A stretch of 64,000 bases of DNA, taken from a virus. The position numbers were made by a program, and so were the translations under genes. Position 1 is the stretch's first letter, and every line of letters begins with the position of its first letter. Below are positions 3,779 to 50,389 of the stretch, piece by piece. The stretch is from positions 32,001-96,000 of IMG/VR virus record IMGVR_UViG_3300024983_000001. One strand, written 5' to 3'. The notes under the pieces are model-generated. The model did not search any database and was not told the origin of the DNA. It worked only from the letters and a program-made list of their open reading frames with translations.

Positions 3779-5281
3779 TCATTTATTCTTTTGAGTATGA
3801 AACAAAGCTTTAATTGTGTTTTTGTTATCAACGGTTTCTAATTTTACATCAAAACCCCACAATGTCACAACGTGTTTAAGAACTTCTTTTGCGGAATCAC
3901 TGTCGAGATACCGATGATTGTTCATGTAGTGGCGTAGAGTCAGAGAACGATCACCCCAGCGATCCACATTGTACACCTGAATATTGGGTTCTGCTGTTGT
4001 CAAGTCATATTGGTTAGCAAGCAATGTGCGTACAGTCTTGTAACCTTCATCGTCGTGAATAGCACTAATGACATAGTCACTATCTTTCTCTTCGTCGCGA
4101 ATGCTAAACAATTTAAGGTCACGCATCACCTTAGGTGACAGATATTGGCGGATGAAACTCTCGTCCTTGAAATTTTCCATCGCAAAGTGAATTGTTTCTT
4201 TCCAATCACTACCAGCGAACTTCGGAAACCACCGCTTGTCTTCTTCAGTTGGTTCTTCACAAATGCGTTTGATGTCCATGAACATAGCAAAACCAAGTGC
4301 ATAAGGATTGATACCACTGTAGTACTTGTGGCTAAAAGGTAGTTGGCGTATAACACCTGTATGAGATGCCATAAATTCCAGCATGAAACCATCAGTGATG
4401 AGGTTTTCTTCACGCAACTTATGCATGATCGTGTAGTGTGTAAACGTAGCAAATCCTTCATTCATCACCTTGGTTTGTTTTTGGGGATAAAAGTATTGCG
4501 AAATTTTGCGCACAATACGAATAATCTCACGTTTCCACTGTGGCAGATTAGGTGCGCTCTTTTCGATGAAATATAAAATGTTTTCTTCCGGTTCAGCAGG
4601 GAAAGTCTGTTTACGTTTGAGTTCAGAATCTGGTTCATTTGATGGAACGGTACGCCACAAATCATTTACCTGGCTTTGTAGCCATTCGTTACGGTCCTTT
4701 TGACGCTGTTCTTCTTTTACCATTGAAATCTTTGACGGGCGTTTGTATTTGTCCACACCATAAGATTGCAGAGCATGACATGCATCAAGCACCTCTTCAA
4801 CTTCGTCAATGCCGTATTTTTCTTCGCAATCGTTGATGTATTTTTTTGCAAAAACCAAATAATCAACAATGCTTTCGGCGTCTGTCCACTGTTTAAACAT
4901 GTAATTGTTTTTGAAGAATGCGTTGTGGCCAATACCCGCATGTGCCATCACGAGAATCTGCATCATCATTGTGTTTTCTTCCATGCAATACACCAAACAC
5001 GGAGACGTGTTCAACACGATTTCGTATGCAAGCCCCATTTGACCGTGCTTATAACCCTTTGCATTGCGCACAAACTCTTTACCAAACGACCAGTGATTAT
5101 AATTGATTGGCATACCCACTGCAGCATAGGCATCCAGCATCTGTTCAGCACTGATAATTTCGATTTGATTTGGATAAATTTTGCATCCGAGGTATTCCGT
5201 ACCAATACGTTCAATCTCCTTGTAATATGCATCAAGTAGTTCGAACGTCCATTCGCTTTTGGTTGTAATAGGTGTACGCAT
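3779..5281 (-). CDS. spoVR: SpoVR/YcgB family protein
   Basis: YPNQIEII, GMPINYNHWSFGK, GLAYEIV, GHNAFFKNN, TKVMNEGFATF, INPYALGF. Confidence 0.95.
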   Translation of the reverse strand: MRTPITTKSEWTFELLDAYYKEIERIGTEYLGCKIYPNQIEIISAEQMLDAYAAVGMPINYNHWSFGKEFVRNAKGYKHGQMGLAYEIVLNTSPCLVYCMEENTMMMQILVMAHAGIGHNAFFKNNYMFKQWTDAESIVDYLVFAKKYINDCEEKYGIDEVEEVLDACHALQSYGVDKYKRPSKISMVKEEQRQKDRNEWLQSQVNDLWRTVPSNEPDSELKRKQTFPAEPEENILYFIEKSAPNLPQWKREIIRIVRKISQYFYPQKQTKVMNEGFATFTHYTIMHKLREENLITDGFMLEFMASHTGVIRQLPFSHKYYSGINPYALGFAMFMDIKRICEEPTEEDKRWFPKFAGSDWKETIHFAMENFKDESFIRQYLSPKVMRDLKLFSIRDEEKDSDYVISAIHDDEGYKTVRTLLANQYDLTTAEPNIQVYNVDRWGDRSLTLRHYMNNHRYLDSDSAKEVLKHVVTLWGFDVKLETVDNKNTIKALFHTQKNK

Positions 5282-6582
5282 TAAACTGATTCCTTTTCAA
5301 AAAGTTTTCTAAACACGGGAAAAATATCTTCTGGTCCATCAATAAACGCCATATCTACGTTATCGTGTGATGGCATCACTTTACTCTCAAACATTCGTGA
5401 CAATACGTTGTCATCATCACCAATTTGAATATAAGCATAATACTGAATTTGTGGAAGAATTTCATTCAACAAATGTGTGCAATACGTACTATCGTACGAA
5501 TCGTTGTCGCCATCCGATGCTTGGCAGAAATAGATATTCCACGTGCCATCATATCGTTCGGCCATAATTTCCTGCGCCAATTCGAGTGATGGCGAAACAA
5601 GTGTACCACCAGTTTCTTTGGAATAGAAAAACTCTTCTTCATCCACCTCTTTTGCGAGTGTGTGATAACGAATCGGCACAATATCAATATGTTCATATGT
5701 TCTATGTAGGAACACATACAATAACATATAGAAACGTTTTGCCATTTCCTTCTTAAATTCGTCCATACTTCCAGAAACGTCCATCAACATGAACATTACA
5801 GCGCGCGTCGTTGGAACAACCACCGTTTCAAATCGGTTGTAGCGCAAATCGATGTTATCAATGAATGGTACTGCTTTAATTTTGCGTTTCAGTGTTTCGA
5901 TTTGTTTGACGAGATCAGCAATTCTAATTTGTTCATCAGAACAATCTTTCTGCAAAATACCTTGATCATCAGTGTTATCCGCAATGTATTGGATCAAGTC
6001 AGCCAACTCTGCTTCTAACTCTTTAAGTTTACGCTTTTTTGGATTACGCAATGCAGCCCGACGTCCAACCGATTGTTTTAGTGAACGCACATAATTCAGT
6101 TTACTCGGAACCCCATCCACCGAAAAACCTGCACGTTTTAGCTTAGTTTCCTCGATGGAAGACAGTTGTTTTTTCACAAGATCGGGCAATTCCAAATCCT
6201 CGAAGAATATGTCCATGTATTCCTTTTTGGAAATCATGAATTCAAAATCATCTTCTCCATCTCCACCATTACCACTACCGCTTCCACCACTATCGCCTAG
6301 CGGTTTGGGGATGCGATCTCCTGTTACATAATCTTTATTTCCTGGATATACACGATCTGTGTCTCCACCTTTAGCATGATGAAACCAAGGTTCGCTGATA
6401 TCTTTTTTCGGAACAACAACGTTCTGATCTTTGCTATCGACAATATCACGAATATTGCCATTTTTAATATTTTCTCTAATTGCTTCTCTTACATGTTTAT
6501 TGACGCGGCGTACAAACCGTTGACGGTTTGACGAACTTTTGTTTTTACCATTAACGCGTCTGTCTACTATGTGAAAACTCAT
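5281..6582 (-). CDS. yeaH: YeaH/YhbH (DUF444) vWA-domain protein
   Basis: IVDRR.NGKNKS..NRQRF, FEDLELP, MIDAS-like DVSGSM, ETGGT, QASDGDN. Confidence 0.95.
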   Translation of the reverse strand: MSFHIVDRRVNGKNKSSSNRQRFVRRVNKHVREAIRENIKNGNIRDIVDSKDQNVVVPKKDISEPWFHHAKGGDTDRVYPGNKDYVTGDRIPKPLGDSGGSGSGNGGDGEDDFEFMISKKEYMDIFFEDLELPDLVKKQLSSIEETKLKRAGFSVDGVPSKLNYVRSLKQSVGRRAALRNPKKRKLKELEAELADLIQYIADNTDDQGILQKDCSDEQIRIADLVKQIETLKRKIKAVPFIDNIDLRYNRFETVVVPTTRAVMFMLMDVSGSMDEFKKEMAKRFYMLLYVFLHRTYEHIDIVPIRYHTLAKEVDEEEFFYSKETGGTLVSPSLELAQEIMAERYDGTWNIYFCQASDGDNDSYDSTYCTHLLNEILPQIQYYAYIQIGDDDNVLSRMFESKVMPSHDNVDMAFIDGPEDIFPVFRKLFEKESV

Positions 6583-6640
6583 ACTATCTCCAATTTTTGG
6601 TTGTATTTGTGGGCTGCATAGTCATATCTCAGTTTCCATT

Positions 6641-6669
6641 ATAATAAACTAAAACCAACAAAAAGTCAA
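6641..6669 (-). promoter_or_regulatory. Sigma70-type promoter for yeaH-spoVR
   Basis: TTGACT-17-TATTAT. Confidence 0.65.
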
Positions 6670-6726
6670 TACTTGTATCTCTATGTATAACGAATATAAA
6701 TATAAACACATAATAAGGAGAACATT

Positions 6727-6969
6727 ATGAAAACATGTAGCAAATGTGGTGTAGAAAAGGACGTTGTAGACTTCAATTATGATGGTATGTCAATTGACCT
6801 TTTGAGTTCTGTATGCAAGGATTGCAAAAGCGGTTCGGTCAAACCTGTAGTTAAAAAACCAGTAGTTAAAAAACCAGTAGTTGAGAGTGTGGCACCAGTT
6901 GTGGACGCAACGACAGCGTCCGTTATACCAGCAAGTGAGGTTACACCTTTAGAGCCTCCAAAAGAGTAA
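6727..6969 (+). CDS. Small Zn-ribbon protein with KPVVK repeats
   Basis: CSKC...CKDC; 15-bp repeat x3 at 6841-6882; TATAAATA at 6695-6702; AAGGAG RBS. Confidence 0.75.
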   Translation: MKTCSKCGVEKDVVDFNYDGMSIDLLSSVCKDCKSGSVKPVVKKPVVKKPVVESVAPVVDATTASVIPASEVTPLEPPKE

Positions 6970-6971
6970 TA

Positions 6972-7000
6972 TAAAATAAGGCCCAATGGGCCTTATTTTA
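6972..7000. terminator. Bidirectional intrinsic terminator
   Basis: TAAAATAAGGCCC-AAT-GGGCCTTATTTTA. Confidence 0.85.
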
Positions 7001-8122
7001 TATCAAGTTTGAAAATGTCACTTTTCTGTAATAGTTTTTGCCTGCACTTTGTTCTTTACCTGTTATAACTTTTCCATAACGTGTTGTCAATAACGTACAA
7101 GGCGCAAATGTGTTTGGATTAATAACTATTCCACTACTGATTGTTAGAATATATGGGCTGTAAATGTACCCCGTATCCGTTTCGCCAGCGGCCCCTTTAT
7201 AACCCACCAACACCACGTTGTTATTTGGTTGTGATTCTACAGTAAAACCGGATGTAGCGTATAGTTTAATAGTGCCACCAACATAACCAACATGCACCAA
7301 CCCATCACCTAGCTTAATATCGTCAAACAAAAATAGTACGTGATTACTTACTTTACTATTATGAGCTTGTAAATATGCTAGCATCGAAGGATCGATAACA
7401 GCAAAGTTGCCCGCACCTCTTCGGGTTGCGCGTGCTATTTCGTTAGCAGCCATGTTAATGTGTAATATTACTGATGTAATCTTTTCCGCACTAGCAAAGA
7501 CATCCTGCGCAATGTTTACTTCTTCATCAACTGCTATTTCGTACAGTTCGTTCATAAGGATGTTGTTTAGTTCAAGAGCTATTTCACTTGCCATTGCCGC
7601 AGTTAGTTCTTGTTTGGTGTCAATATCGTGAAGAGCCTTTAAGTCCTTTTCTGCTTCAACACTCCACGTTGCCGACAGCTTTTGGCTGATCGCTGTCATT
7701 GCTTGTGAAACGATTTCGATCGAAATTTTTTTATCTTGTTCATCCGTTTGGTTTAACAGGCGGGATTGTAATGAATACACTAAGCCAACTGGGCCAGATA
7801 ACGGTTGCATTCCCACTAAATTCCAATGGAAGAGTTTATCCAAAACAAGTTTTGTTATGATAAACATATTATCATTTTTTGCTAAAAAACTTGTTGTAGT
7901 GTCTGAGAATATAGCCAACAATTTATTCAATGCCTTAGGCTGTTCATGCAGTTCGTTGTCTGGAATATTACGCATCGTATTGTCGAGGATGGTGTTATAG
8001 ACTACCAGCCGCTTCTCATCAACACCATTACAGATACTATTTTTGTAAGCTGTCCATTTTTTATCAAATTTGCGTTGTTTGTAAAGTTTGTAAACGTCTT
8101 GTAACAATTGTAGTTTAAACAT
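6998..8122 (-). CDS. Divergent T4 gp23/gp24-family capsid protein paralog
   Basis: VGMQPLSGPVGLVYSL, KLSATWSVEAEKDLKALH, EI.LE, TRRGAGNF, VGYKG..ETDTGYIYSPY, TRYG. Confidence 0.85.
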   Translation of the reverse strand: MFKLQLLQDVYKLYKQRKFDKKWTAYKNSICNGVDEKRLVVYNTILDNTMRNIPDNELHEQPKALNKLLAIFSDTTTSFLAKNDNMFIITKLVLDKLFHWNLVGMQPLSGPVGLVYSLQSRLLNQTDEQDKKISIEIVSQAMTAISQKLSATWSVEAEKDLKALHDIDTKQELTAAMASEIALELNNILMNELYEIAVDEEVNIAQDVFASAEKITSVILHINMAANEIARATRRGAGNFAVIDPSMLAYLQAHNSKVSNHVLFLFDDIKLGDGLVHVGYVGGTIKLYATSGFTVESQPNNNVVLVGYKGAAGETDTGYIYSPYILTISSGIVINPNTFAPCTLLTTRYGKVITGKEQSAGKNYYRKVTFSNLI

Positions 8123-8198
8123 TTGATTTCCCTTTGTTTTTTATTGTATTGATTATATATTAGGGTTATTTTTTGTGATACCAATCGGCTATTTTAAT

Positions 8199-8227
8199 AA
8201 TTTACAGCCTGAAACATAATAAGGCAA
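8199..8227 (-). promoter_or_regulatory. Sigma70-type promoter upstream of the capsid paralog
   Basis: TTGCCT-17-TAAATT. Confidence 0.45.
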
Positions 8228-8294
8228 CAAGTTTGTTAATGCCAATAAAATAAGGAGTACAATTGTTCTCCTTATTTTTGTCTAACTACTTGAT

Positions 8295-10214
8295 TTAGTT
8301 GTTCTTTCTGTAACGCATGTACCACGAAACCAACAACTCGACCTGTTTCCGTGTATAACCTTTTTCAACCATACGGTCAACGAATGCATCGTGTTTGTTC
8401 TGCTCTTCTTTCGAACCTTTTGCGCTAAAGGACACAATAGGTAGCAGTTCTTCGGTGTTTGCAAACATCTTCTTCTCAATCACCTCACGAATCTTTTCGT
8501 ATGAAGTCCAATCAGGATTCTTGCCGTTGTTGTTAGCACGCTGACGAAGAGTGTAGTTGACAACCTCATTACGGAAATCTTTTGGATTTGCGATGCCAGC
8601 AGGTTTTTCAATCTTTTCCAGTTCAGCATTCAGGTTTTCACGATCATACATTTCACCAGTATCTTGGTCGCGGTATTCGGTGTTTTGAATCCAGTGATCT
8701 GCGTAAGTGATATAACGATCGAACAGATTCTGTCCATACTCACTGTACGATTCGAGATAAGCAGTCTGGATCTCTTTACCAATGAACTCACCAAACTTTG
8801 GTGCAAGAATCGTTTTGATGAAATCAATATACTTCTCTTCGGTTTCACCATTAAACTGTTCTTGTTCAATCTGCTTCTCCAAAACATACATCAGGTGTAC
8901 AGGGTTAGCAGCAACTTCGGTATTGTCGTAGTTAAACACCTTCGACAAAATTTTGTATGCAAATCGAGTCGACAGACCACTCATGCCTTCATCAACGCCT
9001 GCATCATCACGATATTCCTGAAGTGGCTTGGCTTTTGGATCGGTGTCTTTTAGATTTTCACCATCATACACACGCATTTTCGAGAAAATAAGCGAATTTT
9101 CAGGTTCCTTGAGTCGAGTCAGCACAGCAAACTGGGCCATCATCTCAAGAGTGCCAGGTGAGCACGGAGCATCAGCGAGCGAGCTGTTACGAAGAAGCTT
9201 TTCATAAATGTTGGTTTCTTCGGTCACGCGCAAGCAATAAGGTACCTTGACAATATAAACACGATCAAGGAAGGCCTCGTTGTTCTTGTTGTTGCGGAAC
9301 GACTGCCATTCAGACTCGTTGCTGTGTGCAAGAACAACACCACTGAACGGAATTGCAGCACCTTCTGTACCATTGAAGTTACCTTCTTGGGTAGCGGTTA
9401 GCAGCGGGTGCAACATTTTGATGGGAGCCTTAAACATTTCAACGAATTCGAGAATACCTTGGTTTGCCAAGCAAAGACCACCGCTGTAGCTGTATGCATC
9501 AGGATCATCTTGCGAATAATCTTCCAACTTACGAATGTCGACTTTACCAACAAGAGCGGAAATATCTTGGTTGTTCTCATCACCCGGTTCAGTTTTAGTA
9601 ATGCCAACTTGATTCAAACGAGACGGCCAAACTTTAACAACCTTGAATTTGGTGATATCTCCACCAAATTCACCAAGGCGTTTTGCAGCCCACGGAGACA
9701 TAACGTGATTGAGGTAGCGGTCAGGAATTCCATAGTCTCGTTCAAGAGATTTGCTGTGTTTTTCCTTACTAAACAAACCAAGCGGAGATTCGTGTACAGG
9801 AGAACCTTTAATGGCATAAAACGGAATCTGCTCCATCAACTCTTTAAGTTTTTCCGCAAGAGACGATTTGCTGGAGCCAACAGGACCCAACAGATACAGA
9901 ATTTGTTTCTTTTCTTCAAGACCTTGAGCAGCATGTTTAAAGTAGGCAACGATCTGTTCGATCACATTTTCAATACCATAAAATTCTTTAAAAGCAGGAT
10001 AACGCTTGATGACACGATTCATAAAGATTCGGCTCAACCGAGGATCGTGTTTCGTATCAATAGTTTCAGGCTCACCAATCGCCATCAACATACGTTCGCC
10101 GGCACTGGCGTATGCAGTTGGGTCTTCTTTGCAGAGGTCGAGATATTCCTGAATGGTCATCTCTTCGGGTTGATGAGATTTGTATTGCTCTTGGTACTCG
10201 GTAAAAATACTCAT
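8295..10214 (-). CDS. prkA: PrkA/YeaG AAA+ ATPase (annotated serine kinase)
   Basis: LLGPVGSSKS, PGDENNQDISALVGKVDIR, ANQGILEFVEMFKAP, HSNESEW, EAFLDR. Confidence 0.96.
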   Translation of the reverse strand: MSIFTEYQEQYKSHQPEEMTIQEYLDLCKEDPTAYASAGERMLMAIGEPETIDTKHDPRLSRIFMNRVIKRYPAFKEFYGIENVIEQIVAYFKHAAQGLEEKKQILYLLGPVGSSKSSLAEKLKELMEQIPFYAIKGSPVHESPLGLFSKEKHSKSLERDYGIPDRYLNHVMSPWAAKRLGEFGGDITKFKVVKVWPSRLNQVGITKTEPGDENNQDISALVGKVDIRKLEDYSQDDPDAYSYSGGLCLANQGILEFVEMFKAPIKMLHPLLTATQEGNFNGTEGAAIPFSGVVLAHSNESEWQSFRNNKNNEAFLDRVYIVKVPYCLRVTEETNIYEKLLRNSSLADAPCSPGTLEMMAQFAVLTRLKEPENSLIFSKMRVYDGENLKDTDPKAKPLQEYRDDAGVDEGMSGLSTRFAYKILSKVFNYDNTEVAANPVHLMYVLEKQIEQEQFNGETEEKYIDFIKTILAPKFGEFIGKEIQTAYLESYSEYGQNLFDRYITYADHWIQNTEYRDQDTGEMYDRENLNAELEKIEKPAGIANPKDFRNEVVNYTLRQRANNNGKNPDWTSYEKIREVIEKKMFANTEELLPIVSFSAKGSKEEQNKHDAFVDRMVEKGYTRKQVELLVSWYMRYRKNN

Positions 10215-24623: not shown

Positions 24624-24655
24624 AAAAATGAGTCCACAATTACTTATGGACTCAT
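24624..24655 (-). terminator. Terminator closing the Pth2 operon
   Basis: ATGAGTCCA-loop-TGGACTCAT followed by a T run. Confidence 0.7.
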
Positions 24656-24682: not shown

Positions 24683-25009
24683 TCAACCACGAAACAAACT
24701 GTGCTTTTTTAGGGGCAATCGTTCTTCCCCGTACAGGGGTTTGGTAGCAATTGCAGTATATCCTGTATTATAGTCTGGTTCGTAAAATATTTGACTTTCA
24801 ATACCACAGTTCCCCAGTCTTTTACGAATTTTTAACAGTTCTTCCTGATTTTTTGCACCCATTAAAACGATGTGCGTGCTTCCCTCCGGTTTGTTGTAAG
24901 CAAACCCAGCCTCAAGGGCTGCGTGTGATGCTTGCACGATTTTTTGTGGTGTTGTTAAATCTTCACGCACAAAAATGTACATATATGGTTTCTCTTCAAT
25001 CTAAATCAT
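24683..25009 (-). CDS. Peptidyl-tRNA hydrolase 2-like protein; RBS-linked start has an in-frame TAG at codon 3
   Basis: YIFVREDL..Q..VQASHAA, FYEPD, TAIA; AAGGA-6nt-ATG ATT TAG ATT GAA GAG AAA CCA TAT ATG TAC in frame. Confidence 0.85.
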
Positions 25010-25367
25010 TGTTAATCCTTTCTAACCACGCTTCAGCCAAATATCGACTGTCACATTCGTTGTACATTGCAGCAATATCTCTGTTTAAACTAATGCGTAA
25101 GGCAAAATTCTTTTCCACTGACATGATGGCGTATAAGCCACTTCTGCTACGTTGACCACTCTCCAATGGTTGACCAGTTGTGTAAACGAATCGTTCTGCC
25201 TTATAGTCACCACCCAACGTGGCTGCTATCATTTCGCACAGGCTCTTACTAAAAGTAAGTCGGTGTAATTTGTTGGTTTTGGTGTTGATAAGCCCCCAGA
25301 TTTTATTCTGTTGTTTACAACCACCGCCCAAATAACACGCATTTTCGATATTGTCAATCTATTTCAT
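24996..25367 (-). CDS. Hypothetical protein; RBS-linked start has an in-frame TAG at codon 3
   Basis: AGGA-7nt-ATG AAA TAG ATT GAC AAT ATC GAA AAT GCG TGT TAT TTG GGC, in frame with the 111-aa ORF. Confidence 0.7.
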
Positions 25368-25369
25368 TT

Positions 25370-25696
25370 TCATTTCCTTTCAATATTAACTGCAAAATTT
25401 TTAATAACTTCATCCTGAATCGTTTGTTTAACAACCCCTTGCACATAATCAACAAATGACGAAGTGTGATATCTATCCACTTTAACACCATGTTCGATAA
25501 AATCAAGCACCACCTTTTTAATAGTACGTTCTAACAAATTGGTGTTCAATTCACGTAGATATTCTTGCGTTACGCTCGATATTTTTTCTTCGATCAGTTG
25601 TTGTGCATACTCTTTGGTAATACCATATTCGTTATTGACCAAATTTCGAATAGCTTTGTGAGCCTGTGTACCCGTCATGTGTTGCATAGTATCCAT
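25370..25696 (-). CDS. Hypothetical protein
   Basis: GGAG RBS; tight packing. Confidence 0.7.
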   Translation of the reverse strand: MDTMQHMTGTQAHKAIRNLVNNEYGITKEYAQQLIEEKISSVTQEYLRELNTNLLERTIKKVVLDFIEHGVKVDRYHTSSFVDYVQGVVKQTIQDEVIKNFAVNIERK

Positions 25697-25698
25697 GT

Positions 25699-26232
25699 TT
25701 ATTCTCCCTTCTTGTGGTAGTCAACTTCTTCGAGGTTGGCTAGGTGATCAACTGTAACAGTTCCGGCGAACGGTGCCAAAAATTTACTCACGGTGGCAAT
25801 GCGATCGATTTGAAGTTTGACCAAGTATTCCTTCGATTGCTTTAATGTCCAGGGCGAATCCACATCTTTGCCAACAATAAGTCTTGCCTGTTTGCATACA
25901 GAATTGATAGTATGAACTGCACAATTAAGCGCATTATACGGATCGTTTAGATTGCTGGTGATTTTATTGGCACCCTTGATCGGCGAAAACCCCACCGAGG
26001 CGTCCTTACCACGGATAATATTAAACAGCACGTGGTGTTCGGCACAAATCCATCCTTTAACAAGACGCCGTCCAGTTCCTTTGGACAAAGTCCATTTGTA
26101 TGACGTTCTGTCAACGAGGTATTCATCACAAGGTTCAAGAATTGGTTTAATACGAATATCGTTCACTGCTAATTTCCATGCGGAACGAAAATTGAGGTAT
26201 TGCTCTTTTGTTTCAAAAAAATTGGTTTTCAT
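25699..26232 (-). CDS. Hypothetical protein
   Basis: AAGGAG RBS before MKTNFF; EHH..FN..RG....GFSP motif. Confidence 0.75.
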   Translation of the reverse strand: MKTNFFETKEQYLNFRSAWKLAVNDIRIKPILEPCDEYLVDRTSYKWTLSKGTGRRLVKGWICAEHHVLFNIIRGKDASVGFSPIKGANKITSNLNDPYNALNCAVHTINSVCKQARLIVGKDVDSPWTLKQSKEYLVKLQIDRIATVSKFLAPFAGTVTVDHLANLEEVDYHKKGE

Positions 26233-26298
26233 GGTATTTCTCCTTAAATTAAAATATAGTTGTTCAAAACATTGCATCTTGATAAATCTACACTACTT

Positions 26299-26331
26299 TT
26301 ACGGAGGACCGTTATTCAAAATCTACATCAT
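26299..26331 (-). promoter_or_regulatory. Putative leader peptide MM(amber)ILNNGPP
   Basis: GGAG-8nt-ATG ATG TAG ATT TTG AAT AAC GGT CCT CCG TAA; ATGA-coupled to the upstream stop. Confidence 0.6.
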
Positions 26332-26555
26332 GATTTTTTCTCCTGTTTAATGTCATACACTTTGGGCCAAACGACATCGGTTATATCACTCGACGTCAAA
26401 TCCTTTAAAATCTCACGCTCTTTATCTGAAAGAGCTAAAATAGCATCACCTGGCTTATATTTTATTGATTCAATCCAACGTGCAAATTCGTATTTATCTG
26501 CAAGGTTGGCCATCAACTGCCGTTGGCGATTACAGATTCTCTCACTCATAATCAT
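26328..26555 (-). CDS. Hypothetical protein
   Basis: Tight packing. Confidence 0.6.
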   Translation of the reverse strand: MIMSERICNRQRQLMANLADKYEFARWIESIKYKPGDAILALSDKEREILKDLTSSDITDVVWPKVYDIKQEKKS

Positions 26556-26747
26556 ACCAATTTGGATGAAGCTCTTTGAGAGCTGCTAAAACATATTTAT
26601 CATCAAGTTCACAAAGATTGTCGCAATCAGCATCTTCAAAGATGGTAACCAATTTTTTACAAACAGTCAACTTTTTGCTTTCTGGAATATTTTTTTAACA
26701 ACATCCCACACATCATCAAAAACATTTACGCCGCTGCTCCAACCCAT
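26542..26747 (-). pseudogene. Small MGWSSG protein split by a frameshift at an A7 run
   Basis: MGWSSGVNVFDDVWDVVKK continues in the -1 frame as NIPESKK...FEDADCDNL...WYDYE. Confidence 0.55.
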
Positions 26748-26748
26748 A

Positions 26749-26910
26749 TCAATGCACCTTTTTTTCAACTGCGGCCGAAATGGCCGTCGCAATAATACCA
26801 AAGTTTCCATTTATACAATGTTGAGCAAGTTTTGTTAAATCTTCTGCAGTCAATTTTTCAAAAACTTTAACCAACTCTACGTTTGGTTCATTCTTTGTAA
26901 TATACGACAT
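26749..26910 (-). CDS. Hypothetical protein
   Basis: GGAG RBS before MSYITK. Confidence 0.6.
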   Translation of the reverse strand: MSYITKNEPNVELVKVFEKLTAEDLTKLAQHCINGNFGIIATAISAAVEKKVH

Positions 26911-26960
26911 AATGTAAACTCCAACAAGTGATATATTATATATCTGTACGATCAAAGAGG

Positions 26961-27179
26961 TTATTTACCCCTTTGGTTTTTATTTCTTTCGTCCCATTCT
27001 TTTGCTTCGATTGCATAATCAATAACAGCTTCTATATCATTGAGTGTGTCAACATCATTTTCGGAAAACTGAAAAAACAAAGGTTTCAGCTCCAAGAGTC
27101 CATCACCTTCCCAAAAGTCAACATGGACAACTTTAAGATATTTTATTAGAAATGCGTATCGTTCTTCAATTGTCTTCAT
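26961..27179 (-). CDS. Hypothetical protein
   Basis: MKTIEERY start coupled to the upstream stop. Confidence 0.6.
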   Translation of the reverse strand: MKTIEERYAFLIKYLKVVHVDFWEGDGLLELKPLFFQFSENDVDTLNDIEAVIDYAIEAKEWDERNKNQRGK

Positions 27180-27331
27180 TCTAACATACAAAATAAACAA
27201 ATTACAGCGCTCATAACGGTCGATAACCCAAGAGCAAGTTGTGTGTGGTGCAAATTGAGATCGCCCGCAACGCCTGTAGCAATACCGAGAGTGATTCCCA
27301 CCATAGCCCAAAAATTCCAAGTTTTTGTCAT
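27176..27331 (-). CDS. 51-aa two-TM protein (not in ORF track)
   Basis: GGAG RBS; MTKTWNFWAMVGITLGIATGVAG...VICLFCMLE. Confidence 0.6.
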   Translation of the reverse strand: MTKTWNFWAMVGITLGIATGVAGDLNLHHTQLALGLSTVMSAVICLFCMLE

Positions 27332-27520
27332 TTCTTTGCTCCAATGTCCTTAAAATAAGATGATGTAAACATTCAGCTTCAATTTCCTGCAGTTCTCATA
27401 CCCCAGCCCATAAATGAACTGTTGCGTTCTCAACATTTATCTCTCCGGAAACTCAAATCCCGATTGCCTACTATATCCAGGGTTTTTATGAACCAGTTAC
27501 GGATACTGTTTACATCAATC

Positions 27521-27596
27521 TGGTGCGCTCGGGGAGGATCGAACTCCCACCAAATCGGGTTTAGAAGCCGTTGCTCTACCATTGAGCTACGAGCGC
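27521..27596 (-). tRNA. tRNA with CUA anticodon (amber suppressor-type), encoded CCA
   Basis: GCGCTCG/CGAGCGC acceptor stem, GCTC/GAGC D stem, TT-CTA-AA loop on a CGG/CCG stem, GGGAG-TTCGATC-CTCCC T arm, ACCA end. Confidence 0.85.
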
Positions 27597-27601
27597 AAAA
27601 A

Positions 27602-27904
27602 TCATTTCCACAGTTTATACTTTTTAACTTGTGGAGGAAAAACGTGTCTTGGCATAAGCACAAGAGCAACTTCTTTATTATCTAACGAACTTTCAGTAAT
27701 TACAACACATCGTTCTATTTGTTTCGATTCTTCGAATTCTTCGCGGGTTACTTGTACTACCACTTTCTTAAAAGATTTTGTTACCCACTCAATAGTGTCT
27801 GGATCGTTTACAAACCGCAAATAAGCAGACAGGCTGGCGTGTGCAGTAACCAACGGCACGATTCCAGTTGGCACGTCATCGGGAATAAGAATATACATTT
27901 TCAT
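27602..27904 (-). CDS. Second peptidyl-tRNA hydrolase 2-like protein
   Basis: KMYILI..D.P.G.....AHASL, W...SFKKVVV, ALVL.PR. Confidence 0.8.
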   Translation of the reverse strand: MKMYILIPDDVPTGIVPLVTAHASLSAYLRFVNDPDTIEWVTKSFKKVVVQVTREEFEESKQIERCVVITESSLDNKEVALVLMPRHVFPPQVKKYKLWK

Positions 27905-27910
27905 GGTACT

Positions 27911-28165
27911 TTACCGTATTTTTCCGTTATGAAAATTTACTAAAAACTCTGCTTCTAATGCATATACAAAAAACTGTTGGTGGTTCACCAAATCAACCCC
28001 ACCATTATTGCTTGTTCGTTGTATAGACTGCACCAAACACGGATAACTCACCGGAGGGTTACCAACTATATTATGGCACTCACCTCTGCTCTTTGTAACA
28101 ACCAAATGTGTTTGGTAATGTTCCCAATCTTCAGTTCCCCGCAATAATTTCCATGGTGAATACAT
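27911..28165 (-). CDS. Hypothetical protein
   Basis: First ORF after the early promoter. Confidence 0.55.
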   Translation of the reverse strand: MYSPWKLLRGTEDWEHYQTHLVVTKSRGECHNIVGNPPVSYPCLVQSIQRTSNNGGVDLVNHQQFFVYALEAEFLVNFHNGKIR

Positions 28166-28192
28166 TGTTTAGTCTTTCTTTGATTATGAATA

Positions 28193-28221
28193 ATTATATA
28201 TCAAAAAGAAAAACCGGTCAA
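28193..28221 (-). promoter_or_regulatory. Sigma70-type promoter driving the Pth2/tRNA cluster
   Basis: TTGACC-17-TATAAT. Confidence 0.8.
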
Positions 28222-28253
28222 CGACCGGTTTTATATTACTTATTAGACAGGAG

Positions 28254-41126: not shown

Positions 41127-41217
41127 CTCACGGTAATTCCCGCTGCCATTGAAGTTACTCTTTAGGCCGGTGAACTTTGTGCCCCAGTCTTTCGAACTGG
41201 TATACCCTTTACATGTA
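41127..41217 (-). ncRNA. c-di-GMP-I (GEMM-I) riboswitch aptamer
   Basis: GGGTATACCAGTTC-GAAA-GACTGGGGCACAAAGTTCACCGGCCTAAA...ATGGCAGCGGGAATTACCG: GNRA loop, receptor and junctions match the consensus. Confidence 0.88.
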
Positions 41218-44575: not shown

Positions 44576-45949
44576 TTACATAGTGCTGTTTGCTCGCACT
44601 TCATCGAACGTATATTCCCTAACAATTTTTCCATTAACGAATACAGTTTCAAGTGCATCAACCACTCCAGGTGTTTCAATGTCAGAAAAATACCCACCAT
44701 CTTCACTCTTATACAGAGTAACACGCCCCTTCTTCGACCGCTTGCCAACATCGGTAACAGGATCCTTATACACATCAACCCAGTTTCCATCAATGCACGC
44801 TGCAGACGTTTTCATCGCAAATTTCAAAGTGTCGCGGTTTACCTGTTGAAGCAGTGCTCCACCCATACCAAAAGCAACGTTGTCAGCACTATATCCAGCA
44901 AACTTCAATGTACGAAGAATCGATTTAATGCTACCCTCATTGATTCCATCGCCCTGAATAACACGTACTACCGGATTAAGAACTTTATATCCCTTCTCAT
45001 TCACTGTTGATCCAAATGCAGCATCAAGTGCTCGGACAACCTCACACACGACCGAAGCAGGATCACCACTATCGGGGCGAATAACAACAGTAGCACCACT
45101 ATCAAGCACTTCTTGTTTCAGTTCTTTACCCCACAGATTTGTGACGGCATTGAGAATGTCGTACGAATCACTAACAGCCGCAAACATCTTGCCTTTGCCA
45201 CCAAACTGTTTAATCATGTTGCGGTAAGCATCAACCTCGTTTTTACGACCCCACGACGTGTAGGAGCTGTGTTCACCAGCCGGAATCGAGTAACCAGGCA
45301 TACCAATTGCATTGTAATATTTCTGTGCAAAACGAATACCCGATACAGTGTCCGACCCCATAAAGTTGACCAAGTGGGCAGCGCCGCCAATACCAGCACT
45401 TTCAAAGGAACTAACGCCACGGGCGCCAAAATCATGCAGTTTGAACGACAGACCTGCAGGATCACCAGTCTCTTCTAATGCTGCACGAATCACTTGCTTG
45501 ATGCTCCAACTATTGGTAGCAACAGTCGTACCATACCATACAGCACGAAGAATTGCAGGCTCGATATACGACGTCAGCCAGAAACATTTGTCGTCAGTGT
45601 TTTCAACGGTAACAAGTACGTTTTTTGTACCGAGGACCATACCTTCAGGAACGGCACGGACAACAAGAGGTAGATAACCAGCGTATTTGTCCACAATATA
45701 CTGCCATCCGGCTCGGTTAAACGGTTCACCGTGAGCAGCGAAGAATTCATCAGCTTCTTCAATCATCTCTTGAGTGACGGGCTTTGTCAGATATTCCTTT
45801 AAGAAAATTTGAAGACCGAACATAACGGTTTTGTCATATTCGCCGCCTCGAGACTCAATGTAAGAGAACACTTTGGTGGTATTGGGTGGATATTGAAGAA
45901 AGTGTGATGCTTTGTATGAATCAGTATTAAGAATAATGTTTGTTTCCAT
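44576..45949 (-). CDS. nadV: Nicotinamide phosphoribosyltransferase (NAMPT)
   Basis: TDSYKASH..QYP, LHDFGARG, SIPAGEHS, VSDSYD, IRPDSG, QGDG, FGMGGALLQ..NRDT. Confidence 0.96.
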   Translation of the reverse strand: METNIILNTDSYKASHFLQYPPNTTKVFSYIESRGGEYDKTVMFGLQIFLKEYLTKPVTQEMIEEADEFFAAHGEPFNRAGWQYIVDKYAGYLPLVVRAVPEGMVLGTKNVLVTVENTDDKCFWLTSYIEPAILRAVWYGTTVATNSWSIKQVIRAALEETGDPAGLSFKLHDFGARGVSSFESAGIGGAAHLVNFMGSDTVSGIRFAQKYYNAIGMPGYSIPAGEHSSYTSWGRKNEVDAYRNMIKQFGGKGKMFAAVSDSYDILNAVTNLWGKELKQEVLDSGATVVIRPDSGDPASVVCEVVRALDAAFGSTVNEKGYKVLNPVVRVIQGDGINEGSIKSILRTLKFAGYSADNVAFGMGGALLQQVNRDTLKFAMKTSAACIDGNWVDVYKDPVTDVGKRSKKGRVTLYKSEDGGYFSDIETPGVVDALETVFVNGKIVREYTFDEVRANSTM

Positions 45950-45996
45950 GATAAAACTCCTTTATCAAAAATTATACAAACCGTCTATCAGTTTGT
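45950..45996 (-). promoter_or_regulatory. Two-hairpin leader motif, copy 1 (nadV)
   Basis: ACAAAC-tGATAGACg-GTTTGT then GATAAA-GGAGT-TTTATC-ATG. Confidence 0.7.
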
Positions 45997-46011
45997 TTGG
46001 TACTACAAAAA

Positions 46012-46257
46012 TTAACGAGAACGGTCCACCGGACTCGCTTGTTTAATTGTTGCTGTGATTCCACTGAACGTCGGATCGCCAGGGCCACGATCATACATAT
46101 CGTACGAACGCATTGTTGCGTTAAATTTGATGTCAATATCAGACAGGCTTACGTCGATATTATATTTGTCGCGAAGTAAATTGAAGACAGCTTCTTGGAC
46201 GAGCTTGTGTGCATCAGCCTCCGAGAAATCAAACGTCATCTTGGTATTAATATTCAT
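46012..46257 (-). CDS. Hypothetical protein
   Basis: AAGGAG RBS; TTGACT-16-TATAAT at 46317-46344. Confidence 0.7.
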   Translation of the reverse strand: MNINTKMTFDFSEADAHKLVQEAVFNLLRDKYNIDVSLSDIDIKFNATMRSYDMYDRGPGDPTFSGITATIKQASPVDRSR

Positions 46258-46304
46258 GTTAAGCTCCTTAACAAGTTATGAAGGTGAAGGGTCTGTCCCT
46301 TCAC
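46256..46304 (-). promoter_or_regulatory. Two-hairpin leader motif, copy 2
   Basis: GTGAAGGG-ACAGA-CCCTTCAC then TGTTAAG-GAG-CTTAACA-TG. Confidence 0.7.
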
Positions 46305-46352
46305 ATGTTATTTAATATTATAACTAATAAAATATATAAGTCAACACTTATT

Positions 46353-46511
46353 TTAAGCGTAAGTATCAATTCGACCTTTTGGTACTGGTTTCTTTTTCAC
46401 ATCAGGATCATTTTCCGTCTTAACAATTCGTTTAACTGGCTGAACCTTTGTTGTTGACGATTTGTCTAACAACTTTGTGATGGGTGAAACAAATATTTCT
46501 CTTAACAACAT
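46353..46511 (-). CDS. Small protein with MLLREIF tag
   Basis: AAGGA RBS. Confidence 0.55.
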   Translation of the reverse strand: MLLREIFVSPITKLLDKSSTTKVQPVKRIVKTENDPDVKKKPVPKGRIDTYA

Positions 46512-46555
46512 ATAATTCCTTTGTGATTGTGTATCTTTATATTTACACAAATAGA

Positions 46556-46909
46556 TCAAAGTTCACTTAACTGACGGTCAATATCAGCGATTTGTTCGAG
46601 CAAATCTCGTTTTTGCTTTTCAAGTTTGGTACGTTCCCAAACTTCATCAGGCTTCGAAATTTTAATCAGTTCAAAATCTCCGCCTGCCCCCCATTGCCAA
46701 AAACGTTCCATTTCTACGGCCATATCGATAATGTCGCCTAGACGACCTTCAAAATAGCCAAGTGATGGTTGATAGTGCGGTCCGTGAAGATCACAATTGG
46801 GATCTTCCCCCTTAACATGCCACAATCCATAGTCATCAAGATCATATTTTTGCAGCAACTGCCGATAATTCCACGAAACAATATATTTGTCTTTTGCTTT
46901 TGAGTCCAT
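46556..46909 (-). CDS. Conserved phage hypothetical protein
   Basis: G.W.V.GED.NCD..G.H..P.LG..EG; FW.WG.GG. Confidence 0.75.
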   Translation of the reverse strand: MDSKAKDKYIVSWNYRQLLQKYDLDDYGLWHVKGEDPNCDLHGPHYQPSLGYFEGRLGDIIDMAVEMERFWQWGAGGDFELIKISKPDEVWERTKLEKQKRDLLEQIADIDRQLSEL

Positions 46910-46958
46910 AAGGAAATCCTCCTAATGATTTGAATGATTAACGTCTATCGTTAATCAT
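46910..46958 (-). promoter_or_regulatory. Two-hairpin leader motif, copy 3
   Basis: ATGATTAACG-ATAGA-CGTTAATCAT then AGGA-GGATT-TCCT-T-ATG. Confidence 0.65.
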
Positions 46959-46983
46959 AATAATACACTAATACTTATTTATG

Positions 46984-47508
46984 TCAACTATTTTTGAAAC
47001 TTCCTATTAACATTTGTGTTTTAACAACACCTGGGGACACTTCCCTCGTGTAGTGGAATCCGTCTGGATCCAATTCCAATATTTTTTGGCCGAGGATTCG
47101 TTCTGCTTGAGTGTTAGGTATTGGTTTGCCACCTAAATTCAACATTACCTTTTCCAAATTGCCGCTAAACTCACCCCACGATTTGTTTCCTGTGATATCA
47201 TCCGAAAGAATGGCCTTCAACGCATTTTTTCCATCTCTCGTATCGTTATGAAAAACTAATCGAACTTTATGCCCACTACTATTACGATAGATTACTCCAG
47301 CAACGATTTTACCATCAATAAACGACGCCTTCCATACTCCAGGTGTATTGATTAAATTGTCTAAATTTGCACCACTTAATCCCATTCCCGAACCATATTT
47401 GTCGTATGTATTTTGCAATAACTGCCATACATAACTGGCATAACGCTTTCGTTGGGTAGGTGTTACAAGATTTACAAAGTTCTCACACAGAATTTCGTAT
47501 ATTTTCAT
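46984..47508 (-). CDS. Protein with MKIYEILCE tag, possible GNAT-like fold
   Basis: CATAAATA at 47541-47548; fold call is tentative. Confidence 0.6.
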   Translation of the reverse strand: MKIYEILCENFVNLVTPTQRKRYASYVWQLLQNTYDKYGSGMGLSGANLDNLINTPGVWKASFIDGKIVAGVIYRNSSGHKVRLVFHNDTRDGKNALKAILSDDITGNKSWGEFSGNLEKVMLNLGGKPIPNTQAERILGQKILELDPDGFHYTREVSPGVVKTQMLIGSFKNS

Positions 47509-47543
47509 GTGGCATTTACCTAATATTGATTTAATATCAATAT

Positions 47544-47750
47544 TTATGACATCATGTCTGTCAAATCTCGTCCGTTTAAATAAGTAATCAAAAAATCGTG
47601 AAGATTGTATGTGACACCATCATACCCAAGGATAATATCAGGTGGTATGACTGATTCAACGACCACCATACCAGTGTTTAACATCCAAAATGCAGGGTCT
47701 CTAGGTGCAAGTTTGATTATATCTCCCGCATTAATAATAACTTCATACAT
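47544..47750 (-). CDS. Hypothetical protein
   Basis: Overlaps the upstream stop. Confidence 0.55.
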   Translation of the reverse strand: MYEVIINAGDIIKLAPRDPAFWMLNTGMVVVESVIPPDIILGYDGVTYNLHDFLITYLNGRDLTDMMS

Positions 47751-48303
47751 TTTTATAAACTAAATCATTCATGATGTGATGTACAGTGTCCACATTTTTT
47801 CCGTATACATTATCAACTTCGAAGAAAGGTACGCCTGTATCAATCAATAATGCTCTCAAATCCTTATCAATTTGAATAGCCTCATTCTCATCTTGATTTC
47901 TACCAACCGTTTCATACGGAACCCCCCGTCGAATAAGAACGTTGATGTTGTTGTATGAATTGTATGTGTCCATTACATAATCAAAAAATGATGGGGGGAA
48001 ATCCTCTGGCATATACATAAACCCCAACAACAACGAAGTGTCAGCAACAATATAATCTACTTGACCCACCAAACGTCTAAACCTGTTATTTTGTTTACTG
48101 AAAATATAATCTTGTTCCGTCAACATATGATGACGACCTTCAAAGGTATAATCTTTTGCAACTTCGGGTACATACTCAACCTTCCCTTTTTGGGCTAGCG
48201 ACATATAGTAAGCGAGACCAAGTGCAGTAGTGGATTTACCAACGCCGGGTCCACCCAACATATTGATTATAGTAACGTCTTTGTTATTCGAATATGGTAA
48301 CAT
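47743..48303 (-). CDS. NadR/AAA_28-like P-loop kinase
   Basis: GGPGVGKSTTA, EYVPEVAK, Q..R, DTSLL, Y...GR.Q.E.EA..ID. Confidence 0.8.
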   Translation of the reverse strand: MLPYSNNKDVTIINMLGGPGVGKSTTALGLAYYMSLAQKGKVEYVPEVAKDYTFEGRHHMLTEQDYIFSKQNNRFRRLVGQVDYIVADTSLLLGFMYMPEDFPPSFFDYVMDTYNSYNNINVLIRRGVPYETVGRNQDENEAIQIDKDLRALLIDTGVPFFEVDNVYGKNVDTVHHIMNDLVYKNV

Positions 48304-48314
48304 TTCATCTTCCT

Positions 48315-48524
48315 TTATAAGTTGTGCATTTGCTTGTCGTAATAATATCGCGCAAAATCACAAATCTCCGCTGCTTGTTGTTTTGTACATATGATAACAC
48401 GTGTACACGGATCGGTAATTAGTTGTTGATCCATCAACCATTTAATCATTCCGGAATTAGGATCCGCACATATACCAATATGCACAGAGTCCAAATCGTT
48501 TAGTTCGGTGGGGATGTTGTTCAT
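48315..48524 (-). CDS. Hypothetical protein
   Basis: ATGA coupling. Confidence 0.55.
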   Translation of the reverse strand: MNNIPTELNDLDSVHIGICADPNSGMIKWLMDQQLITDPCTRVIICTKQQAAEICDFARYYYDKQMHNL

Positions 48525-48886
48525 GGCATCATTGGCGAAGGTACTTCACCTCTCGTAACGCACGGCAAGTTGGAAACATCGGGATTTACACTTGTAAACA
48601 CTTCTTCCCCGTCTTTGGCTGCAAACAATGCGGTATTGTTATCAAGACTGTATATGGTCCAGCCACCTGAAACCATTTGCCAACCAGTCAGTTTATCTTC
48701 GGGTCCAACATCAGGAAATTTAACCAACAAAACATATTTGTCTCCAGATGATGGATTGTGAATACCCCAGCATGCTTTTTCAGAGCGTGCGTAATAATCT
48801 AGTGCTGCTTTTGCATACACCAATCCCGTACTAAAAGAATCATCCTTTGATGCGCCCTGTGACGACGTATCTTCCTTTTTGCGCAA
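48521..48886 (-). CDS. Hypothetical protein (start uncertain)
   Basis: Fills the gap. Confidence 0.55.
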   Translation of the reverse strand: MRKKEDTSSQGASKDDSFSTGLVYAKAALDYYARSEKACWGIHNPSSGDKYVLLVKFPDVGPEDKLTGWQMVSGGWTIYSLDNNTALFAAKDGEEVFTSVNPDVSNLPCVTRGEVPSPMMP

Positions 48887-48950
48887 CCCAACAACATTAA
48901 CGTCATTAGTGCAGAAACTATCATATGTTTTTTCACAACAAACTCCTCAA

Positions 48951-49361
48951 TTAGTGATTAATAACATAACAGCGCGACAACAAAGCCATGATAACTTTGT
49001 TGTTATAATCTCCACAACGACCATTAACTAATTCGGTTGGGGTAACCCATTGAACGTTAATATCTCGTTCCATTTGAGAGGCTGCTTCCGATTCGACGGT
49101 ATGAACGTATCTAAATGTTGTTACGTGATAGCCTCCATCATCAACACCTTCATACAACTGAATCAATTGTCCACGTTGTGTAACCAATCCAGTTTCTTCC
49201 TGTAATTCTCGTATTGCTGCATCAATAGGTTTTTCGTTGTCTTCAAGTTTTCCACCGGGAAGACCAAAAACATTGTATTCACCCCTAACAGATGCGGCAA
49301 GAATCTTACCTTCTCTGTTAAAGACTACTACACATGCAGCATTACGAGTTTCACCATTCAT
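48951..49361 (-). CDS. Nudix hydrolase
   Basis: LPGGKLEDNE...AAIRELQEETGL. Confidence 0.92.
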   Translation of the reverse strand: MNGETRNAACVVVFNREGKILAASVRGEYNVFGLPGGKLEDNEKPIDAAIRELQEETGLVTQRGQLIQLYEGVDDGGYHVTTFRYVHTVESEAASQMERDINVQWVTPTELVNGRCGDYNNKVIMALLSRCYVINH

Positions 49362-50389
49362 TAAATTTGCCCAAGAAAATATTGAATTATGTGATAATGA
49401 TCCTCAAAACATTTCGATTCGTCAAGCTCATTTAATGGAATCCACTTTGCTTTTTCAGCATCATCATTACCTTTAACTTTTGGAAGGTCACCGGCCGGTA
49501 GCTCAATGAGGTACGCATGTGTGATTGTGCGCCCACGAAGAGACCTGTTGGGTGTATCAAACACATGAGATGTTTTGACACTACCACGGAGAACTGCCTC
49601 CGGTACTTTAATTTTAGTTTCCTCGCGAAGTTCACGAATTGCCGCGTCAAGCAGCCGTTCGTTTTGATTAACAAATCCACCCGGCAATGCACCAAGTCCA
49701 CGACCTGGGGCGGCTCGACGTTTAATCATCAGTACATGTCCGGACTGAACAACAACAGCATCAACAGTAACAAAAGTTGGAGCATACGGTGCCCTATCCC
49801 ATGAGTTTTTGTAGGCTTGAATATAAAAATATTCTTCCACGAGTACATAAAATCCTGGCGTTTTCATCCAATCAACGATATAGCTCTCGACAGCTTTTGA
49901 AACGGTTGGGTACACATGTTGTTTAACAGCAAACATTTCTTCGCGAATTTGTGTGGCATTTATACCTTGAAAATTAGGTACTTCAACAACACTCCATTGT
50001 GGAAACAGCTTTAGATAAAAGCTACTTTCGTCTTTACTGTGACCAATAATACCTATTTTGTGAGGGTTGGGTACGGCTATATAATCATCTTCTGCAATAA
50101 CACTATCAATAGTGTTTTGAATATCACGAACCCACTTTTGGTCATTGTATGGTTTATCTTTAGCCGCGACAACAACATAATTGGTATGTGAGGACCCCAT
50201 CGCAGCAAGAATCATTTGCTTGCGCTCGACAAAATTCCATGGGTTTTTAATGGTTCGTGGTTGGTTAGTAGAACCAACCACGACAATGACTTTTTCGGCC
50301 ATTTCACACGCCTGTTTGAGCACTGCTTCGTGACCATTGTGAAACGGTGAAAAACGACCGATATAAATTAGATAATTAAACTTTTTCAT
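49361..50389 (-). CDS. nadM: Bifunctional NMN adenylyltransferase / ADP-ribose pyrophosphatase (NadM-Nudix)
   Basis: IGRFSPFHNGH, KNPW...ER, GHSKDESSFYL, NATQIRE, FVTVDAVV, LPGGF..RELREET, RSLRGR.IT. Confidence 0.95.
   Translation of the reverse strand: MKKFNYLIYIGRFSPFHNGHEAVLKQACEMAEKVIVVVGSTNQPRTIKNPWNFVERKQMILAAMGSSHTNYVVVAAKDKPYNDQKWVRDIQNTIDSVIAEDDYIAVPNPHKIGIIGHSKDESSFYLKLFPQWSVVEVPNFQGINATQIREEMFAVKQHVYPTVSKAVESYIVDWMKTPGFYVLVEEYFYIQAYKNSWDRAPYAPTFVTVDAVVVQSGHVLMIKRRAAPGRGLGALPGGFVNQNERLLDAAIRELREETKIKVPEAVLRGSVKTSHVFDTPNRSLRGRTITHAYLIELPAGDLPKVKGNDDAEKAKWIPLNELDESKCFEDHYHIIQYFLGQI

What the first reader, a model, noticed from the sequence alone, without database searches (positions are those of the whole stretch)
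24683..28221. Amber-gated operon: three ATG-NNN-TAG-ATT starts, a CUA suppressor tRNA and two Pth2 genes
Seen: three RBS-preceded starts in one minus-strand run carry TAG at codon 3, followed by ATT. They are ATG ATT TAG ATT (25009, in frame with Pth2), ATG AAA TAG ATT (25367, in frame with the 111-aa ORF) and ATG ATG TAG ATT (26331, leader ending GPP). A CUA tRNA and a second, uninterrupted Pth2 lie upstream, behind a sigma70 promoter at 28193-28221. By hand count, only 4 of about 100 called genes end in TAG (15222, 31380, 39550, 55538), and all four are TAG-G. Known: A after TAG favours suppression, and Met-X-stop minigenes (lambda bar) cause peptidyl-tRNA drop-off that Pth must recycle. Inference: expression of Pth2 and its neighbour depends on competition between suppressor tRNA and RF1, forming a phage sensor of translation status. 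I know of no description of this arrangement.
Basis: partly seen in the sequence, partly recalled or inferred. Interest (0 to 1): 0.93.

Follow-up and report, generated by a model that had tools for sequence, protein, structure and literature searches.

The report
Private suppressor tRNA unlocks phage operon
A large phage with the normal genetic code puts a UAG stop at the third codon of two genes and of a tiny leader in one operon, so they appear to be translated only when a stop-reading tRNA from that same operon overrides the stop; distant phages keep this lock and change stop codon and tRNA together.

Summary
Confirmed and extended. All three amber starts, the CUA tRNA, promoter and terminator are real; the 257-kb phage otherwise uses the standard code. 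The early stop is conserved: 60 of 117 distinct Pth2-like homologs, 11 of 17 homologs of the 120-aa gene and a neighbouring HD-like family keep it. The third start is a translational attenuator: its Pro-Pro codons pair with the Shine-Dalgarno of the 177-aa gene (26/29 leaders versus 31/125 controls; 10/10 independently chosen homologs have such a leader). Gate codon matched the nearby tRNA anticodon in 48/48 loci (44 TAG, 2 TAA, 2 TGA), and three relatives use four-base codons with matching tRNAs. So the lock is a private codon/tRNA pair; RF1 sensing, the TAG-A rule and the minigene/Pth loop are not supported as its general logic. Both 'Pth2' proteins have the Pth2 fold but lack the catalytic Lys, so hydrolase activity is unshown. 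Nothing is tested experimentally; the signal is inferred. No paper found in nine searches; this scan has already noted the same system in many other genomes.

The parts
28193..28221 (-). sigma70-type promoter (11/12), overlapping the upstream terminator hairpin 28210-28232
   Evidence: consensus match only
27602..27904 (-). ungated Pth2-fold-like gene A (100 aa), catalytic Lys absent
27521..27596 (-). amber suppressor tRNA (CUA), G1-C72, A73, encoded CCA, only 3 anticodon-stem pairs (27:43 and 31:39 mismatched)
   Evidence: six double-sided stem changes against the relative in L016
26328..27331 (-). run of small unassigned ORFs between the tRNA and the leader; the last overlaps the leader start
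   Evidence: no family
26299..26331 (-). amber-gated leader peptide, TAG at 26325-26323, ends Gly-Pro-Pro-stop
26233..26310 (-). attenuator hairpin: Pro-Pro codons (26307-26302) pair with the SD (26245-26240) of the next gene
   Evidence: predicted
25699..26232 (-). 177-aa gene of unknown function controlled by the leader
25370..25696 (-). 108-aa ungated gene with its own SD, unknown function
24996..25367 (-). amber-gated 120-aa family gene, TAG at 25361-25359; internal two-fold repeat, no known fold match
24683..25009 (-). amber-gated Pth2-fold gene B, TAG at 25003-25001; weak in-frame bypass ATG at 24982
24628..24655 (-). intrinsic terminator closing the operon

Best explanation
The operon carries its own key and locks. 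The CUA tRNA is a weak private decoder. A ribosome starting at 25367 or 25009 meets UAG at codon 3 and is released by RF1 unless the charged private tRNA reads it; then the 120-aa family protein and the Pth2-fold protein are made (the inserted residue is immaterial). At the leader, read-through carries the ribosome to Gly-Pro-Pro-stop, where it pauses on the anti-SD arm and frees the SD of the 177-aa gene. Three gates make output a steep function of the functional pool of one tRNA. Shown by comparison: conserved gates, gate/anticodon covariation, standard code elsewhere. Predicted: the hairpin. Inferred: read-through, pausing, and the signal. The most likely signal is how much private tRNA is charged and wins the A site, rising when normal tRNA supply or termination is disturbed in infection, which switches on tRNA/ribosome-rescue-type proteins.
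For: 60/117 Pth2-like homologs with SD-ATG, 1-7 codons, in-frame TAG; TAG tied to the start (codon 3 in 36) and not to the fold (6-14 codons before the conserved Arg); 53 of 56 have no other in-frame start. At least 8 gains or losses on the tree. 120-aa family 11/17 and HD-like family 16/27 gated. 48/48 gate/anticodon matches, no mixed loci. Cultured gated phages Yen9-03, BF, GAP32, ME3, RsoM2USA, Xoo-sp13, Arash, KP2025, BUCT-ZZ01, Astolliot hold CUA tRNAs; no CUA tRNA was found in ungated K64-1. Leader/SD pairing 26/29 vs 31/125; 10/10 loci chosen on the 177-aa gene have an amber leader ending xPP, 4 of them with two TAGs. 31:39 pair broken in 18/54 CUA tRNAs vs 25/411 others. Four-base variants in L012, L159, L037.
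Against: No experiment. In this genome ATG 24982 could make a 99-aa Pth2-fold protein without read-through (weak SD). The window tRNA's anticodon stem is only 3 pairs, so its activity is unproven. Loci are related and were picked by short motifs, so counts overstate independence. No CUA tRNA was found in gated Slickus01 or in two partial contigs by one pattern. The hairpin is energy-predicted; z only -1.3 to -2.3, 3 two-sided changes in 3 sequences. Functions of all gated proteins are unknown.
Confidence: 0.8

Rival explanations
1. RF1-level sensor: the tRNA is a constant competitor and the switch reads release-factor shortage, like prfB.
For: TAG is the commonest gate; purine after TAG in 57/60; weak tRNA suits a competition sensor.
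Against: TGA, TAA and four-base sense-codon gates with matching tRNAs replace TAG in the same gene families; no release-factor gene in G000, 78% complete. Compatible with the best explanation as one input only.
Confidence: 0.25
2. Timer or dose switch without an outside signal: the tRNA must first be transcribed, matured and charged, so the gated proteins appear late and non-linearly with genome copy number; the private code also keeps them silent in the absence of the tRNA.
For: tRNA and gates share one promoter and terminator; double-TAG leaders add cooperativity; codes differ between phages.
Against: In several phages the tRNA lies far from the gated gene; a pure delay needs no arrest-type leader nor weakened stems.
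Confidence: 0.25
3. Minigene/Pth feedback: Met-X-stop minigenes shed peptidyl-tRNA, and the gated Pth2 recycles it.
For: Pth2 fold; minigene drop-off is established (PMC8012679); jumbo-phage PTH2 is proposed for ribosome rescue (PMC7824862).
Against: Conserved Lys replaced by Gln13 and the Asp/Thr loop reshaped; codon before TAG varies freely; gates at codon 5-9 exist.
Confidence: 0.15
4. Neutral relic: pseudogenes, sequencing errors, or tolerated nonsense codons under an early stage of TAG recoding.
For: Stop-codon accumulation after gain of a suppressor is a published route to recoding (10.1101/2021.08.26.457843).
Against: Stops sit only at codons 2-9 of the same few families across very distant phages, downstream frames are intact, no other such gate was found in the genome; cultured phage genomes carry them.
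Confidence: 0.04

Closest known systems
Stop-codon-recoded phages (code 15/4) with phage suppressor tRNAs (10.1101/2021.08.26.457843)
   Same: Phage tRNA reads a stop; proposed to time gene expression.
   Different: Here the genome is standard code; one stop per gene at codon 2-9 of a few non-structural genes; tRNA body is not Gln-like.
Orphan CUA tRNAs of jumbo phages, e.g. XacN1 (PMC5852040)
   Same: CUA tRNA in a standard-code jumbo phage that also encodes a Pth-like gene.
   Different: That paper looked after annotated amber stops and found no target; here targets are at gene starts.
Translational attenuators with arrest leaders: ermC/cat (own knowledge), RAPP peptides ApdA/ApdP and RxPP/HxPP motifs (PMC10951233), PepNL (PMC11890864)
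   Same: Short leader, Pro-Pro pause motif, downstream SD hidden in a hairpin; PepNL shows stop read-through as a regulatory input.
   Different: The ribosome must first pass a stop read by a dedicated tRNA; the window's NGPP-stop lacks the Arg of RAPP.
prfB early-stop autoregulation (PMC12421855)
   Same: Early in-frame stop makes synthesis depend on beating a release factor.
   Different: No frameshift in this window, no release-factor gene, dedicated tRNA needed.
Streptomyces bldA tRNA / TTA-codon regulon (own knowledge)
   Same: One tRNA is the key to a set of genes with a rare codon.
   Different: Sense codon and cognate tRNA there; stop or four-base codons and a co-encoded non-cognate tRNA here.
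Pth2 (archaeal/eukaryotic; PDB 3erj, 2zv3, 1q7s); PTH2 in jumbo phages (PMC7824862)
   Same: Fold, TM 0.75-0.79.
   Different: Catalytic Lys replaced; resembles the PTRHD1-like branch (own knowledge); no translational gate reported.

Membership tests
TAG-recoded (code 15) phage | many genes interrupted by in-frame TAG; coding density jumps under TAG=Gln | tested here: not met
   ORF coverage 0.87 (code 11) vs 0.90 (TAG read) vs 0.92 (TGA read) at 100 aa; long genes intact, 30 of 360 ORFs end in TAG
TAG-recoded (code 15) phage | phage-encoded CUA tRNA | tested here: met
TAG-recoded (code 15) phage | Gln-type tRNA identity (U1-A72, G73; own knowledge) | tested here: not met
   G1-C72 in 45/54, A73 commonest; window G1-C72, A73
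Pyrrolysine system | tRNA-Pyl architecture (no GG in D loop, no TΨC, 3-nt variable loop; own knowledge) | tested here: not met
   canonical D-loop GG, T-loop UUC, 6-nt variable region; matches RF00005 at 59 bits; ARAGORN's 'Pyl' is an anticodon label
Pyrrolysine system | pylS/pylBCD genes; conserved residue position in the protein | tested here: inconclusive
   pyl genes not searched; TAG position floats against the fold, 6-14 codons before the conserved Arg
Pth2 peptidyl-tRNA hydrolase | Pth2 fold | tested here: met
   pLDDT 93 model, Foldseek TM 0.79 to 3erj; Pfam PTH2 24.5 bits
Pth2 peptidyl-tRNA hydrolase | catalytic Lys/Asp/Thr set (own knowledge) | tested here: not met
   Lys position is Gln13 in 90% or more of 68 homologs, Lys also absent in gene A; Asp to Glu68 and loss of the Thr loop read by eye
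Pth2 peptidyl-tRNA hydrolase | hydrolysis of peptidyl-tRNA | not testable with these tools
   needs assay; invariant R6, Q17, H20, E68, D70 could form another site
Leader-peptide translational attenuator | short leader overlapping a helix that hides the next SD | tested here: met
   (predicted pairing, with control)
Leader-peptide translational attenuator | ribosome stalling in the leader opens the SD | not testable with these tools
   blocking the ribosome footprint raises SD unpairing from 0.26 to 0.54 here, mean 0.19 to 0.51; stall itself untested
RAPP-type arrest peptide | R/H-x-P-P motif | tested here: not met
   window has N-G-P-P-stop; R or H in 15 of 29 relatives
prfB-type autoregulation | +1 frameshift at the early stop in a release-factor gene | tested here: not met
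   all three gates are in frame; no RF-1 family match in G000

The most novel reading that the evidence does not exclude
A widespread phage 'private code' circuit: a cassette of tRNA-related genes is locked by an interchangeable codon (UAG, UAA, UGA or a four-base word) that only the cassette's own non-cognate tRNA reads, and the charging of that tRNA acts as a sensor of host tRNA-targeting defence, switching on counter-defence or rescue proteins, with the Pth2-fold protein possibly feeding back on the tRNA.
Probability: 0.4. Interest if true: 0.93.

Novelty: new variant of a known kind. Interest (0 to 1): 0.82.

Why it matters
It gives the long-unexplained suppressor tRNAs of standard-code jumbo phages conserved targets and makes their role directly testable in cultured phages (GAP32, BF, ME3, Arash, KP2025, Mx1). 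It shows a natural counterpart of the amber-dependent and quadruplet switches that synthetic biologists build, explains why these genes are missed or truncated in annotations, and points to three uncharacterised protein families that a phage keeps under tight translational lock.

Tried and rejected
Genome-wide recoding: rejected. Pyrrolysine: rejected on tRNA architecture. tRNA-Arg(UCU) misread by one base: loop and body look Arg-like, but A20 is absent, the genome has a separate Arg(UCU) gene and the family keeps the CUA loop. Four-base reading of UAGA in this window: rejected, all three frames continue after a triplet and the ungated relative L016 has the same N-terminal length. TAG-A/TAG-G rule: rejected. 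HD-like partner: not found in G000. Release factor: not found. 120-aa protein: no Pfam/PHROG family, best Z 4.0, Atlas TM under 0.5, which shows no novelty of fold. 177-aa protein: only an unknown-function PHROG. Neither family was found in prokaryote genomes by short patterns. My hand-written structure was out of register and is void; one search replaces it. The covariance model R1 lacked the anticodon stem and was not used. Nine literature searches found no description.
Full report
Observation. The window lies in a 257-kb phage record (78% complete) with about 60 tRNA genes. The three starts, the CUA tRNA, the promoter and a terminator directly after the last gene are as described. ATG-NNN-TAG-ATT occurs five times in the genome; the three in this operon are the only ones with an SD, and about 0.006 are expected in 1.4 kb. 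The code is standard: reading TAG adds no more coverage than reading TGA, and 30 of 360 ORFs end in TAG.

Gated Pth2-fold gene. Homologs in cultured phages (Yen9-03, GAP32, BF, ME3, RsoM2USA, Arash) keep an early in-frame TAG and are unannotated or truncated in GenBank. Among 117 distinct homolog loci, 60 are TAG-gated, 2 TGA, 1 TAA, 53 ungated. The stop is fixed relative to the start codon (codon 3 in 36, 4 in 11, 5-9 in 13) and floats relative to the fold, which points to regulation and not to a special residue (inference). 53 of 56 gated genes have no other in-frame start before the first strand; the window gene is one of the three exceptions. The tree needs at least 8 gains or losses (104 rows, 107 columns, 6 mis-anchored rows and one edge row left out). 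The fold is Pth2, but the Lys four residues before the conserved Gln is Gln13, and the Lys is also missing in the upstream gene, so 'Pth2' is a fold label only.

Other gated families. The 120-aa gene has gated homologs in KP2025, BUCT-ZZ01, Slickus01, Astolliot and metagenomic phages, often next to the suppressor tRNA; 11 of 17 are gated. An HD-like gene that flanks or is fused to the Pth2-fold gene elsewhere is gated in 16 of 27 and is absent from this record.

The leader. It belongs to a family Met-x(1-11)-stop-x(2-11)-Pro-Pro, with or without a closing stop. The Pro-Pro codons are complementary to an SD, and the predicted fold pairs them with the SD of the gene 48-97 nt downstream in 26 of 29 cases, against 31 of 125 control starts (Mann-Whitney p about 1e-8 to 1e-10). 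The regulated genes are mostly homologs of the 177-aa gene. As an unbiased test, all 10 loci picked by that gene alone had an amber leader ending xPP in frame, four with two TAGs. Ten different Pro-Pro codon pairs are used and Arg or His stands two residues before in 15 of 29, which fits published RxPP/HxPP stalling motifs (PMC10951233) and suggests selection on both RNA and peptide. In three close relatives the hairpin is kept with 3 two-sided changes.

The key. In all 48 distinct loci that held both a gate and a stop-reading tRNA, codon and anticodon matched: 44 TAG/CUA, 2 TAA/UUA, 2 TGA/UCA; no locus mixed gate codons. Whole-record searches found CUA tRNAs in most further gated phages. The CUA tRNAs are a coherent set (G1-C72, mostly A73) with the 31:39 pair broken in 18 of 54 against 25 of 411 other tRNAs; the window tRNA differs from its relative in L016 by six two-sided stem changes with an unchanged loop, a sign of purifying selection. 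In three relatives the same genes begin one base out of frame and a nearby tRNA carries the complement of a four-base word at positions 34-37: CAUU/AAUG for both genes of Myxococcus phage Mx1, GAUU/AAUC in L159 (that gene also has an internal TGA), CUAG/CUAG in L037. The constant element is therefore a private codon/tRNA pair, not RF1 or UAG-A.

Mechanism. Shown by comparison: conserved gates, covariation with the tRNA, standard code elsewhere. Predicted: SD-hiding hairpin. Inferred: read-through by the private tRNA, pausing at Gly-Pro-Pro-stop, SD release. I give 0.8 to tRNA-gated translation. For the input, which is open: charging or availability of the private tRNA under translation stress about 0.45, release-factor level about 0.25, timer or copy-number switch about 0.25. 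The charging idea rests on own knowledge that non-cognate suppressors are charged in competition with the cognate tRNA. The output is most likely a tRNA or ribosome rescue function, from the Pth2 fold, the HD-like partner and neighbours such as RNA ligase, Thg1 and peptide deformylase in relatives; this is inference.

Known and new. It works like recoded-phage timing (10.1101/2021.08.26.457843), prfB, arrest-peptide attenuators and the bldA regulon, but fails membership of code-15 recoding, pyrrolysine, prfB and RAPP in the tested features. The XacN1 paper found no target for its CUA tRNAs (PMC5852040), and a jumbo-phage survey lists PTH2 without mention of suppressors (PMC7824862). Nine searches found no description. 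This scan has noted the gated Pth2-like gene, the leader and the four-base variant on many other genomes; I reached each before reading those notes, and they are not independent support. This window adds all three gates in one operon and the gated 120-aa family.

Noticed in passing
L012:1650-2020 and 2419-2493 (Myxococcus phage Mx1, OR576727); L159:4985-5010 and 6231-6305; L037:9681-9757 and 9963-9985: Four-base-codon versions of the same lock: CAUU/AAUG (two genes, cultured phage), GAUU/AAUC, CUAG/CUAG; L157:4972-5000 also needs a +1 shift, no tRNA found in the locus.
   Followed up: partly
window 41129-41216 (-): c-di-GMP-I riboswitch (Rfam RF01051, 57.5 bits) in the phage, ahead of genes for secreted-looking proteins.
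   Followed up: no
   Followed up: partly
L007:3891, L008:2437, L063:11616, L148:6388: HD-like family resembling the HD domain of CCA-adding enzymes (by eye), gated by TAG or TGA and sometimes fused to the Pth2-fold domain; PHROG 14850.
   Followed up: partly
L163, L164, L166, L168, L169, L001, L019, L074, L099: Leaders with two in-frame stops (TAG twice, or TAA twice in L099) before the Pro-Pro motif.
   Followed up: partly
L037, L040, L042, L047, L052, L056-L062, L064-L069, L094: Suppressor tRNA beside a Pth2-like gene with no gate found by my strict filter; other gated genes may be present.
   Followed up: no
window 3779-10214 (-) and 44576-50389 (-): By eye from translations: PrkA/YeaH/SpoVR-like gene trio and an NAD salvage cluster; not tested.
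   Followed up: no
G000:C1 122191-220358: About 60 tRNA genes in clusters far from the lone CUA tRNA, covering nearly all amino acids.
   Followed up: no
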